From Candidatus Baldrarchaeota archaeon (GTDB taxonomy: Archaea; Asgardarchaeota; Baldrarchaeia; Baldrarchaeales; DXJG01), in NCBI GenBank assembly GCA_019056805.1, contig DXJG01000004.1:221647-253646 (forward strand): DNA of 32,000 bases. Direction: 5' to 3'. Shown here in pieces: positions 18,552 through 20,833 of this stretch. The translations under genes and the position numbers were made by a program. Numbering within the stretch: the stretch's first letter is position 1; each line of letters begins with the position of its first letter. Under the pieces are notes generated by a model that saw nothing but the letters and a program-made list of their open reading frames with translations, had not been told where the DNA came from and ran no database searches.

Positions 18552-18836
18552 TTAAGGAAGAATGTTTTGGCTTCTCTGTATCTGCTTTACTTTCACGATA
18601 TCAACACTGAAGAGCTTCATAGGTAAACCTTTGATATCAAGTACGTCTTCGAGCTTAACTTGAGTACTAGCTTCATACTCAACCAGTACGGGGACATTAT
18701 TAATAATACATGGGAAAGCATACCTTACCTTACCATTATCCTCCTTTATGGAAAAGACACATTTCTTACCATCCACATAGTTCCTTATAAGCTCCTTAAA
18801 CTGTTCCAATTTTTCAACAGTCACTCTTAACACCAC
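18552..18836 (-). CDS. Hypothetical 94-aa protein, third gene of the micro-operon
   Basis: GTG start 3 nt after the upstream stop; GGGGGTGA SD overlaps that stop. Confidence 0.75.
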   Translation of the reverse strand: MVLRVTVEKLEQFKELIRNYVDGKKCVFSIKEDNGKVRYAFPCIINNVPVLVEYEASTQVKLEDVLDIKGLPMKLFSVDIVKVKQIQRSQNILP

Positions 18837-18839
18837 ATT

Positions 18840-19034
18840 TCACCCCCGTAAAACCTCTACACCAACACCATTCTTCCTCAATACCATTCTTCCATCCCTA
18901 TCCCTAGCAACAACATAAACGTTATCAACATTCAAAACCACTTTCAACCTCTCCGTCAAAATCTCTACAAGCGCTGCAATCTCCCTGAGAAGCGGATCAT
19001 CCGTCTCAGGAGTAATAAAAAATTTAGCAGCCAA
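18840..19034 (-). CDS. Hypothetical 64-aa protein sharing a PETDDP motif with the N-terminus of the divergent regulator
   Basis: TTG start after a GGTGATGAGGGGGG SD that overlaps the stop of the 40-aa ORF. Confidence 0.75.
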   Translation of the reverse strand: MAAKFFITPETDDPLLREIAALVEILTERLKVVLNVDNVYVVARDRDGRMVLRKNGVGVEVLRG

Positions 19035-19050
19035 TAGATCTCCCCCCTCA

Positions 19051-19173
19051 TCACCCTGTTGGCCACGGATCTTGTGGATCTGCTAAAACAACGGCTGATA
19101 TAATACTTACTAGTAAGAATATTAACCATAGATTTGCAAGCAACCAAATCTTCAACCTACCAAATTTAACCAT
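19051..19173 (-). CDS. 40-aa pro-peptide: Sec-type signal peptide plus C-terminal DPQDPWPTG (absent from the ORF track)
   Basis: GGAGGTG SD 8 nt before ATG 19173. Translation MVKFGRLKIWLLANLWLIFLLVSIISAVVLADPQDPWPTG, TGA at 19053-19051. Confidence 0.75.
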   Translation of the reverse strand: MVKFGRLKIWLLANLWLIFLLVSIISAVVLADPQDPWPTG

Positions 19174-19224
19174 TACCTAAACACCTCCAACTTTATTTTG
19201 CTGAAATAGGTGGTCATGGGAGGG

Positions 19225-19388
19225 TATATAAATCACGGAAAATCCGGAAAAATAAAGGGACATAAATCCGAATTCGATAAATTTTACTGAAAAGTGTTTG
19301 AAAAATAGTAAAACGATGTATAGAGGGTTTATAGATCTTATGGATAAATTTTTATAAGTTTTAAATTTTCCGTGATACGGGAAATTTT
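19225..19388. promoter_or_regulatory. Divergent promoter region with inverted 12-bp motifs
   Basis: TATATAAA 19225-19232; ATCACGGAAAAT 19232-19243 and its exact reverse complement ATTTTCCGTGAT 19365-19376. The latter lies inside an imperfect palindrome at 19363-19388. Confidence 0.55.
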
Positions 19389-19429
19389 AAAAAATATGTG
19401 TTATACTTTAAATTTTGAAAGTGATAATA

Positions 19430-20833
19430 ATGGTAACAACAAATAGATACGATGACCTCTTCCCCGAAACCGATGACCCGAAATTAAAAACTCTATTTGA
19501 AAAAATAAGGATCTATTTAGCACGCTGCGATGGTTTAATTAAAGATTCTAATCCAGGTATATTGGTTAAAAGAGACGATATGGGAACTTTTGATCCCTAT
19601 CTTACTCCCAAAAGTAAAAAAGTATATGATACTATTATTTATAGGCTCAAAATGATTAAGAAATATAGGATAAGCGATTTTGAACAAATACAGCGTCTAC
19701 TTTCTCTAGATTTAGTTAGGGAAAAAAAGCTTAAGAGAAACGAGAGAAAGTTTTTGGAGGCTTTTATTGCATATCCTGATAAAAATTATACAGAAATTGC
19801 AAGGTTATTAGGCGTTACCCCGGCGGCAGTGTTATATAACTTAAAAAAATTCAAGGAAAAGCTTGGTTTGAGATTTGTTTCTCTCTTTGACTATACAAAA
19901 TTTAAATTAAGAAAGTACGTGATATTTGTAAAATTTAAACATCCCTATGATAAGCGAACTGTTTTTAAGGTTTTTGAGAATCCTTCCCTTACAAGTTTCA
20001 ATTTTGATACATTTTCCTCTGAGGGGAAACGATGGGGATGGTTGGGGTTTGTTGTACCTGATCAAAGAAGGGTACTAAAGGATTTTAGGGATTCCATTGC
20101 TGAGCTTGAAGGTGTATTGTTTGATGAAGTTAAGGTTTATGAAGAAAAGGGTATAAGTCATGGTTGGAATTTGGATCGTTTTGATAATAGACGTTGGTTT
20201 TTTCAAGAGGATATGTGGATATATGGGCTCCTGAATTTCGTCGAAAAATATGAGGATATATTACCGCAACCTGATATTTTTTGTTTTTCTTATGAAACAA
20301 TACCTTTTGATAATATAGACTTTCTCATATTTCTTTTTAAAAGAGTAGACTACAAAATTTCTTATCAGAGGATTAGAAGTTTACTTCAAGAGCAGGGATA
20401 CGATTTATCTATTACTCAGATTGGAGAGAAAGTTAAGAAATTGAAGTTTTTCAACGTTTGGAAACCATATGTACATTTAGCAGGTCTCGGCTTATCTGAG
20501 TTTCTTACAGTTAATGTTGAGTGCGACGACAGTATGAAAGAGATTTTATTGAAGGCCTTAACCGAGTTTCCAAGATATTTTGTGTCTATACACGACAAAG
20601 GGCTTTTGTTTATGTTGTTTCTTCCTCATGGTTATGGTGAGAGGTTTGCTTATCTTTTTGATGATTTTAGAGAGCATGTTGATGATATGTTGATTATTCG
20701 AAGGTTTACTAATATTGGTTCTTGGCTTCCTATTAATATGCATAGAATGTGGAATGCTAAAAGAAGGTTTTGGGAAGTAAAGAGAAATTATTTTAATTTC
20801 TATGATAAATTAAAAACATTTCTCCCGATTTAA
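19430..20833 (+). CDS. Tandem (double) Lrp/AsnC-like wHTH-RAM transcriptional regulator with an extra N-terminal domain
   Basis: NYTEIARLLGVTPAAVLYNLKKF...FDYTKFKL, and a second unit ISYQRIRSLL...IGEKVKKL...HLAGLGL. ATG 19430 follows AAGTGA. Confidence 0.75.
   Translation: MVTTNRYDDLFPETDDPKLKTLFEKIRIYLARCDGLIKDSNPGILVKRDDMGTFDPYLTPKSKKVYDTIIYRLKMIKKYRISDFEQIQRLLSLDLVREKKLKRNERKFLEAFIAYPDKNYTEIARLLGVTPAAVLYNLKKFKEKLGLRFVSLFDYTKFKLRKYVIFVKFKHPYDKRTVFKVFENPSLTSFNFDTFSSEGKRWGWLGFVVPDQRRVLKDFRDSIAELEGVLFDEVKVYEEKGISHGWNLDRFDNRRWFFQEDMWIYGLLNFVEKYEDILPQPDIFCFSYETIPFDNIDFLIFLFKRVDYKISYQRIRSLLQEQGYDLSITQIGEKVKKLKFFNVWKPYVHLAGLGLSEFLTVNVECDDSMKEILLKALTEFPRYFVSIHDKGLLFMLFLPHGYGERFAYLFDDFREHVDDMLIIRRFTNIGSWLPINMHRMWNAKRRFWEVKRNYFNFYDKLKTFLPI

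What the first reader, a model, noticed from the sequence alone, without database searches (positions are those of the whole stretch)
18552..20833. Unannotated secreted pro-peptide operon facing a double-Lrp regulator: candidate archaeal peptide-signalling system
Seen: a 40-aa ORF missed by the ORF track (19173-19051, minus strand, strong GGAGGTG SD). It encodes a basic n-region, a hydrophobic helix, a V-L-A signal-peptidase-like site and only nine further residues, DPQDPWPTG. Its stop overlaps the SD of a 64-aa gene, whose stop overlaps the SD of a 94-aa gene. The operon is divergent from a 472-aa tandem Lrp-like regulator. Known: signal peptide plus short C-terminal peptide next to a regulator is the layout of bacterial Phr/Rap, PapR/PlcR and phage arbitrium AimP/AimR, although those receptors are TPR proteins. 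Inference: an exported nonapeptide sensed via a non-TPR regulator, either quorum-like or a mobile-element switch.
Basis: partly seen in the sequence, partly recalled or inferred. Interest (0 to 1): 0.85.

Follow-up and report, generated by a model that had tools for sequence, protein, structure and literature searches.

The report
Membrane-targeted proline-rich micro-gene beside double-Lrp regulator
The hidden 40-codon gene is real: it is a membrane-directed form of a tiny proline-rich peptide gene that at least six families of Asgard archaea keep next to a double Lrp-type regulator and a mini roadblock-like protein, an undescribed module that may be a peptide signal circuit.

Summary
The 40-aa frame (19051-19173, minus) has a TATA box, a GGAGGTG ribosome site and tight links to the 64-aa and 94-aa genes. 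It lies back-to-back with a 472-aa regulator. Seven genus-level variants keep it open under purifying selection, so it is a gene. The organism is a Baldrarchaeia (Asgard) archaeon.

The 64-aa protein models as a truncated Roadblock/LC7-like fold.

The main new result is that the peptide's C-terminal tail ([DST]-P-x-[DN]-P-aromatic-P) is the old part. All 31 roadblock-like loci I examined, in six Asgard families, carry a Pro-rich ORF directly upstream of that gene. In most it is only 9-16 codons with no export signal. A hydrophobic N-terminal helix is present only in this genus and in one other family.

Export, cleavage and sensing are not shown. The best reading (0.45) is a peptide-plus-regulator module that works like Rgg/SHP and its leaderless peptides. 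The main rival is a cis-acting proline-rich leader peptide like mgtL.

This scan had already noted double-Lrp plus proline-rich micro-gene pairs on other Asgard DNA. The membrane-directed form and the roadblock link are new here.

The parts
19051..19173 (-). 40-aa small gene: basic N-end (K3, R6, K8), a 21-23-residue hydrophobic helix, a V-L-A site, then the tail DPQDPWPTG
   Evidence: ORF. Seven variants in A6. dN/dS mostly 0.1-0.4. Kyte-Doolittle 17-residue maximum 2.4-2.9. Present in public catalogues.
19182..19188 (-). GGAGGTG ribosome-binding site, 8 nt before the ATG
   Evidence: Read. GGAGGT or GAGGTG is conserved in all seven variants.
19225..19232 (-). TTTATATA box of the small operon
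   Evidence: Invariant in all seven aligned intergenic regions.
19232..19243 (-). 12-mer ATTTTCCGTGAT abutting the operon's TATA box: candidate operator half-site
   Evidence: Exact inverted copy of 19365-19376. These are the only two exact copies in the 1.92-Mb genome. The core TTTTCCGT/TTTTCTGC is kept in relatives.
19366..19384 (.). Palindrome TTTCCCGT-ATC-ACGGAAAA next to the regulator's promoter: candidate operator
   Evidence: It is a perfect 8-3-8 palindrome in most relatives.
19385..19396 (+). TTTTAAAAAATA, a TATA-like box about 35-45 nt before the regulator's ATG at 19430
   Evidence: Read. Conserved block. The promoter role is inferred.
19415..20833 (+). Regulator: N-terminal helices (10-96), wHTH 108-150 plus an alpha/beta domain 153-251, a second HTH 300-345 plus an alpha/beta domain 349-436
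   Evidence: AF2 model with pLDDT 84.8. Foldseek: NirDL 4ch7 at E 4e-8, then many Lrp/AsnC regulators at probability 1.00. Only weak Pfam HTH hits.
18840..19034 (-). 64-aa protein with beta-alpha-beta-beta-beta topology: a truncated Roadblock/LC7-like fold
   Evidence: AF2 model with pLDDT 85.9. Foldseek top 50 are almost all roadblock, LAMTOR or MglB. VIA-align best hit is 7f8f, an Odinarchaeota roadblock, at Z 7.0 and 2.6 A over 64 residues. Found in 26 of 301 Asgard genomes.
18552..18836 (-). 94-aa (probably 93-aa) protein of unknown fold, last gene of the operon
   Evidence: Conserved in Baldrarchaeia only. No family or relative found.

Best explanation
The 40-codon frame is a real gene. 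It is the membrane-directed form (N-terminus in, C-terminus out) of an old Asgard micro-gene. The constant part of that micro-gene is a 9-14-residue Pro/Asp/aromatic motif, roughly [DST]-P-x(1-3)-[DN]-P-[WFY]-P. In every locus I examined it lies directly upstream of a truncated roadblock-like gene. In every locus where the flank was read it also lies back-to-back with a tandem Lrp/AsnC-fold regulator.

Proposed working, which is inferred. The regulator binds the locus-specific TTTTCCGT sites at both divergent promoters, so it controls itself and the peptide-roadblock operon. The peptide product, and not merely its translation, is the signal or ligand arm of the module. In this genus its helix inserts in the membrane and shows the acidic proline-rich tail outside. 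There the tail stays tethered or is released by cleavage after V-L-A. The information then returns to the regulator (its two RAM-like domains) or to the roadblock-like partner. In logic this resembles Rgg/SHP and the leaderless Rgg peptides of streptococci, but with an unrelated receptor fold.

What is shown: the gene is real, the module is conserved, the two folds, and the shared operator. What is inferred: membrane topology, cleavage, signalling and the identity of the receptor.
For: The gene is real. Seven variants keep it open, with conservative changes and dN/dS mostly 0.1-0.4. It carries its own TATA box and ribosome site.

The tail is the ancient part. Family f6 has a 50-aa ORF with a helix plus ...ADPPNGDIPVPIDG in the same position, and synteny holds on three contigs. 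f2 has MYPQDPFPV, f26 has MDPYSDDPFPF, f13 has MDPGNGGGSPW-type ORFs, and 17 f12 loci have M-x-P...NPFPF-type ORFs.

Background is low. Of 961 ATG-started ORFs of 9-16 codons in 147.5 kb, 17 fit the motif. Fourteen of these are the ORFs directly upstream of a roadblock-like gene and 3 lie elsewhere.

A selected hydrophobic helix with the same charge asymmetry in two families argues that the product matters, not only its translation.

The regulator has a tandem Lrp/AsnC fold. The exact 12-mer occurs only twice in the genome, once at each promoter.

The genome encodes a signal peptidase I, M50 site-2 proteases and two Opp-type binding proteins. This shows feasibility only.

There is precedent for helix-bearing and leaderless peptides serving one regulator family, divergently transcribed, with the mature peptide starting at Asp (PMC13361665).
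Against: There is no expression, export, cleavage or binding evidence of any kind. The helix is long (21-23 residues) with conserved polar and aromatic positions, which fits a permanent anchor better than a cleaved signal. Most family members have no export signal at all. The alternating prolines near the stop resemble cis-acting leader peptides (mgtL; PMC6460261). In family f12 the mini-ORF lies inside a leader with invariant blocks that could pair with the next gene's ribosome site. All sequences come from metagenome assemblies.
Confidence: 0.45

Rival explanations
1. Cis-acting proline-rich leader peptide. What matters is how ribosomes translate the Pro-rich end of the small ORF (pausing that depends on aIF5A, Pro-tRNA or a small molecule). 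That pausing sets expression of the roadblock-like gene downstream, as mgtL and mgtP do in Salmonella. The peptide itself has no function.
For: The ORF always lies directly upstream of the same gene, is mostly 9-16 codons long, has Pro at position 3, and has P-x-P or [DN]-P near the stop. mgtL has Pro at positions 3, 5, 7 and 9 and senses EF-P and Pro-tRNA. In f12 the mini-ORF is enclosed by invariant blocks predicted to pair with the next gene's ribosome site, and a hairpin follows its stop.
Against: In this genus a 30-residue hydrophobic N-terminal part is under purifying selection, which a pure leader would not need. No conserved RNA structure links the ORF to the 64-aa start here. The spacing from the ORF's stop to the next start ranges from an overlap to 164 nt. 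Aromatic and acidic positions are conserved besides the prolines. The f12 pairing shows no covariation because its blocks never vary.
Confidence: 0.25
2. Permanent small membrane protein. The 40-mer is an uncleaved single-pass subunit or anchor that works with the roadblock-like proteins or another membrane partner, with no signalling role for a free peptide.
For: The helix has 21-23 residues and a Kyte-Doolittle maximum of 2.4-2.9. N14, W16, S23 and S26 inside it are invariant. It is co-transcribed with two small soluble proteins.
Against: The cytoplasmic part is only 8 residues, too short for an obvious docking site. The only deeply conserved part is the outside tail. Relatives lack the helix altogether.
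Confidence: 0.2
3. Not functional as a 40-aa gene: a chance frame or a decaying relic, as in Baldrarchaeum yapensis.
For: In B. yapensis the frame is cut by a TAG, and no PylS was found to read it through.
Against: Seven variants keep the start, the frame, the ribosome site and a low dN/dS.
Confidence: 0.03

Closest known systems
Rgg/SHP and Rgg/leaderless communication peptides (RRNPP-type quorum sensing of streptococci)
   Same: A tiny peptide gene is divergently transcribed from its regulator. The family has both a form with a basic-hydrophobic leader (SHP, whose mature part begins with Asp or Glu) and a leaderless 8-10-residue form (PMC13361665). Here too the tail begins with Asp after the helix, and leaderless 9-16-codon forms exist in sister lineages.
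   Different: The regulator is a tandem Lrp/AsnC fold and not a TPR-type RRNPP protein. A roadblock-like gene always follows the peptide gene. The organisms are archaea. Export, processing, re-import and binding are all unshown.
mgtL / mgtP proline-rich leader ORFs of Salmonella
   Same: A short ORF with alternating prolines (Pro at position 3 and P-x-P) lies in the leader of the regulated gene (PMC6460261).
   Different: No attenuator structure was found in this genus. A selected hydrophobic helix is fused to the ORF here. Aromatic and acidic residues are conserved as well. The downstream gene has no link to Mg2+ or proline.
Lrp/AsnC (feast/famine) regulators and the fused NirDL/AhbAB siroheme decarboxylases
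   Same: The regulator has two wHTH plus beta-alpha-beta-beta-alpha-beta modules in one chain, like NirDL (4ch7, E 4e-8). Single modules match AsnC, PH0061, PH1519 and Lrp.
   Different: Identity is 11-15%. There is no Pfam match beyond weak HTH hits. It has an extra 100-residue helical N-terminus. A locus-specific palindrome argues for DNA binding and not enzyme activity.
Roadblock/LC7 proteins (Asgard roadblocks 7f8f, 7f8m, 7yh1; LAMTOR4/5; MglB)
   Same: The 64-aa model superposes over its whole length on these proteins (Z 7.0-5.2). Like LAMTOR4/5 and the Odinarchaeota roadblock, it is a shortened version of the domain.
   Different: There is no sequence-level match. No GTPase gene is nearby. 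Z below 8 does not prove homology.

Membership tests
RRNPP / Rgg-SHP peptide-regulator quorum sensing | Small precursor gene next to (often divergent from) its regulator | tested here: met
RRNPP / Rgg-SHP peptide-regulator quorum sensing | Receptor is an HTH protein with a TPR-type peptide-binding domain | tested here: not met
   The model is a tandem Lrp/AsnC fold, and no TPR protein is among the 50 listed matches.
RRNPP / Rgg-SHP peptide-regulator quorum sensing | Peptide is exported, processed, re-imported by Opp and bound by the regulator | not testable with these tools
   Only feasibility was checked: the genome has a signal peptidase I, M50 proteases and Opp-type binding proteins.
Sec-type (signal peptidase I) signal peptide | Basic n-region, and small residues at -3 and -1 | tested here: met
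   K3, R6 and K8 are invariant. The sites are VLA|D, ALG|S, VLG|T and ALG|T in the seven variants.
Sec-type (signal peptidase I) signal peptide | Short h-region (about 7-15 residues) followed by a polar c-region | tested here: inconclusive
   The hydrophobic run is 21-23 residues with no clear polar c-region. That length fits a signal anchor (my own knowledge). No SignalP-type predictor was available.
Lrp/AsnC (FFRP) regulators | wHTH followed by a beta-alpha-beta-beta-alpha-beta (RAM) domain | tested here: met
   Present twice in one chain.
Lrp/AsnC (FFRP) regulators | Match to the family's sequence profiles | tested here: not met
   Only HTH_24 at E 3.6e-4 and HTH_AsnC-type at E 0.023, both below cut-off. 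There is no RAM-domain hit.
Roadblock/LC7 | The alpha/beta roadblock fold | tested here: inconclusive
   Two independent structure searches are dominated by roadblock proteins. But Z is at most 7.0, Foldseek E is at least 0.13, and the domain is truncated.
Roadblock/LC7 | Match to the Pfam Robl_LC7 profile | tested here: not met
   No such hit for any of 14 family members at E up to 1.
Proline-rich leader-peptide attenuators (mgtL type) | Short Pro-rich ORF in the leader of the regulated gene | tested here: met
Proline-rich leader-peptide attenuators (mgtL type) | Alternative RNA structures that couple ORF translation to downstream expression | tested here: inconclusive
   None found in this genus. 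In f12 an anti-ribosome-site pairing is predicted, but without covariation.

The most novel reading that the evidence does not exclude
This is the first peptide-based cell-to-cell signalling system of Archaea. Asgard archaea make a proline-rich oligopeptide. It is exported through a signal-anchor in Baldrarchaeia and leaderless elsewhere. It is sensed through a tandem Lrp-type regulator together with a roadblock-like adaptor, a receptor architecture unrelated to bacterial RRNPP systems.
Probability: 0.15. Interest if true: 0.92.

Novelty: new variant of a known kind. Interest (0 to 1): 0.7.

Why it matters
I know of no established peptide signalling system in Archaea (my own knowledge; the paper searches surfaced none), and micro-genes are routinely missed by annotation. 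This locus shows that a 9-16-codon proline-rich gene, a tandem Lrp-type regulator and a mini roadblock-like protein travel together across at least six Asgard families. One lineage has fitted the peptide with a membrane or export helix. That gives a concrete, synthesisable ligand candidate (for example the 9-mer tail), a defined operator and two small soluble proteins. With these, one can test by gel shift, binding assays and toeprinting whether the closest archaeal relatives of eukaryotes use peptide signals or proline-sensing leaders. I found no paper describing the module.

Tried and rejected
- **Regulator with the 64-aa protein (co-fold):** no verdict. It counts neither for nor against binding.
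- **RNA sequencing runs:** no RNA holder was listed for the locus.
only a shared P-E-T-D-D-P plus helix. BLASTP gave E 8e-4 pairwise and hhalign gave E 0.04 with probability 1.3%. The folds differ, roadblock-like against all-helical. Rejected as shown.
- **TAG read-through by pyrrolysine in B. yapensis:** no PylS above cut-off.
- **Known RNA families:** none in the window or in five related loci.
- **94-aa protein:** no Pfam or NCBIfam family, no atlas hit, no PDB sequence relative, and not a paralogue of the 64-aa protein.
- **Atlas search for the 64-aa protein:** nothing.
- **Mobile-element switch:** rejected. The aminotransferase and bactofilin-like neighbours on the regulator side, and a GNAT gene on the operon side, are also present in a genus relative.
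- **Type IV pilin-like signal:** rejected by eye, because charged residues follow the only Gly in the n-region.
- **Pro-rich micro-ORFs within 1.5 kb of three Thor-type paralogous regulators (L010-L012):** none found.
- **Exhaustive profile search with the 40-mer family:** only two clusters in 1.84 billion proteins, so the long form is confined to this clade.
- **Peptide-regulator co-variation:** not attempted. There are too few independent lineages.
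Full report
**Observation.** The minus strand between 19260 and 18552 reads as one compact operon.
- A TTTATATA box lies at 19225-19232 and GGAGGTG at 19182-19188.
- A 40-codon ORF (19173-19051) ends in a double TGA that abuts the G-rich ribosome site of a 64-aa gene (19034-18840).
- The stop of the 64-aa gene lies in GGGGGTGA just before a 93/94-aa gene (18836/18833-18552).
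- The divergent gene is 472 aa from the first TTG. It is more likely 467 aa from the ATG at 19430, the form held in public catalogues.

**Organism and relatives.** The nearest named relatives are Candidatus Baldrarchaeota MAGs: 83% identity to a Yap Trench bin and 50% to Baldrarchaeum yapensis. Metagenome contigs gave six more loci with regulators 78-83% identical, plus the B. yapensis locus again.

**Is the 40-aa frame a gene?** Yes.
- Seven distinct variants (window, L024-L029) keep the ATG, the ribosome site, the TATA box and a length of 39-42 aa.
- Over the first 27 codons dN/dS is mostly 0.1-0.4, and every replacement is conservative.
- M1, K3, R6-I9, L11, L12, N14-W16, L20, S23, S26, P36, P38 and the last G are invariant.
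- Gene callers have found the frame before. The window's own copy and two relatives are in public protein collections, one named only 'hypothetical protein'.
- An exhaustive profile search of 1.84 billion representatives found only two clusters, so the 40-aa form is confined to this clade.

**The tail is the ancient part.**
- In B. yapensis the frame is cut by a TAG. No PylS is present to read it through. A ribosome site and ATG directly precede MYPQDPFPV-stop.
- In family f6, the same slot between the regulator homologue and the small gene holds a 50-aa ORF. It has basic residues, a hydrophobic helix and the tail ...ADPPNGDIPVPIDG. It is annotated as hypothetical in NCBI MAGs and is syntenic on three contigs.
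- Family f26 has MDPYSDDPFPF with its own ribosome site, 20 nt before the small gene.
- The three f13 loci have MDGPNGGIVPW, MDPGNGGGSPW and MDPGGPGPYGN.
- The second f6 locus has MRDDADPIDPTPF.
- All 17 f12 loci have ORFs such as MVPGTNPFPF, MEPHATNPFPF, MDPPYKTNPFPY and MAPRIPPKPEPW.
- Length changes keep the frame, and Pro and Thr codons vary synonymously.
- As a control, I counted 961 ATG-started ORFs of 9-16 codons in 147.5 kb of fetched loci. Only 17 fit a motif that I derived from the data. Fourteen of these are the ORFs in this slot.
- The conserved unit is therefore a 9-16-codon Pro/Asp/aromatic micro-gene. The helix-bearing forms in this genus and in f6 are lineage-specific elaborations.

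**The neighbours.**
- The regulator models confidently (pLDDT 84.8). It has N-terminal helices followed by two wHTH plus alpha/beta modules. Foldseek puts the fused NirDL siroheme decarboxylase first (E 4e-8), then many Lrp/AsnC regulators at probability 1.00. Sequence profiles see only weak HTH matches.
- The family has paralogues in 20 of the 41 genomes searched: this one plus 40 Asgard relatives.
- The 64-aa protein models as beta-alpha-beta-beta-beta (pLDDT 85.9). Two independent structure searches are dominated by Roadblock/LC7, LAMTOR and MglB proteins. The best is the Odinarchaeota roadblock 7f8f (Z 7.0, 2.6 A over all 64 residues). No sequence profile agrees, so I call it roadblock-like and not a proven member.
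- The 64-aa family occurs in 26 of 301 Asgard genomes, in six families. It lies next to a regulator homologue wherever I read the flank.
- The 94-aa protein is restricted to Baldrarchaeia and remains unassigned.

**Control region.**
- The exact 12-mer ATTTTCCGTGAT occurs twice in the 1.92-Mb genome, both times here and in inverted orientation.
- One copy abuts the operon's TATA box. The other is half of an 8-3-8 palindrome next to the regulator's TATA-like box.
- Both sites are kept in the seven aligned intergenic regions.
- This supports a dedicated local operator shared by the two promoters. That the adjacent regulator binds it is inference.

**How it may work.** Three readings remain.
- (a) The peptide product is the signal or ligand arm of the module. 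In favour: the helix is under selection; both helix-bearing families have a positive N-end and an acidic tail, which suggests the tail faces outward; -3/-1 small residues are present in all variants; and the machinery for cleavage and peptide uptake exists in the genome, which shows feasibility only. Streptococcal Rgg systems set a precedent. They have both leader-bearing SHPs, whose mature peptide starts at Asp, and leaderless 8-10-mers, each divergently transcribed from the regulator.
- (b) The ORF is a cis-acting proline-rich leader like mgtL, which has Pro at positions 3, 5, 7 and 9 and is sensitive to EF-P. In favour: its position, its size and its proline pattern. In f12 two invariant blocks flanking the mini-ORF could pair and mask the next ribosome site, but without covariation. 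Against, for this window: no such structure exists here, and a leader needs no selected helix.
- (c) The 40-mer is a permanent membrane subunit. In favour: a 21-23-residue helix with invariant Asn, Trp and Ser. Against: only 8 cytoplasmic residues, and the helix is absent in relatives.

I rank these 0.45, 0.25 and 0.20.

**Relation to earlier notes of this scan.** I found the mini-ORFs first. I then saw that the scan had already reported double-Lrp regulators paired with proline-rich micro-genes in Thor-, Heimdall-, Hermod- and Loki-type Asgard genomes and in Korarchaeota. Those are unchecked leads, but they fit. New here are the membrane-directed form of the peptide and the constant roadblock-like partner. 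I found no publication describing any of this.

**Limits.** All sequences are from metagenome assemblies. No RNA, protein or binding data exist. The motif control used a pattern drawn from the data. The structure matches for the 64-aa protein are moderate.

Noticed in passing
window 18011-18370 (+): A 119-aa frame is only the C-terminal third of a GT1 glycosyltransferase (Pfam E 2e-14). A genus relative has the full 302-aa gene, but on the other side of the GNAT gene (L027 4-912). It looks like a rearranged gene remnant.
   Followed up: partly
window 16978-17538 and 17543-17905 (+): The GNAT acetyltransferase and the following 120-aa frame are one 337-aa ORF in relative L027 (1025-2038). Here a stop splits them, so this is either a split gene or a pseudogene.
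   Followed up: no
L035-L046 and L009 (family f12 loci; alignment A8): The leader of the roadblock-like gene has an invariant 5' block (AUUCCAGCAAACACACUCGC...GGGAAAA). It is complementary to an invariant block that holds a U5 run and the AGGUGGAG ribosome site. The mini-ORF and a small hairpin (ACUGAG...CUCAGU) lie between them. This is a possible translation- or termination-control element.
   Followed up: partly
L003 3046-3165 (+) (Baldrarchaeum yapensis): A hydrophobic 26-codon frame, a TAG, then the mini-ORF, all in one frame. It looks like a long peptide gene cut back to its tail. A TTTAAATA box overlaps the mini-ORF's stop, so the 68-aa gene may have its own promoter there.
   Followed up: partly
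window 19051-19080 (-) and homologous tails: The central conserved dipeptide is always Asp-Pro or Asn-Pro. By my own knowledge these are the two most chemically labile peptide bonds under heat or acid. Non-enzymatic trimming of the tail in a thermophile is conceivable but untested.
   Followed up: no
G004:C12:59745-60002 (L021): B. yapensis has a second, longer (95-aa) copy of the roadblock-like gene at another locus. No regulator homologue and no clear mini-ORF lie within the flank I read.
   Followed up: no
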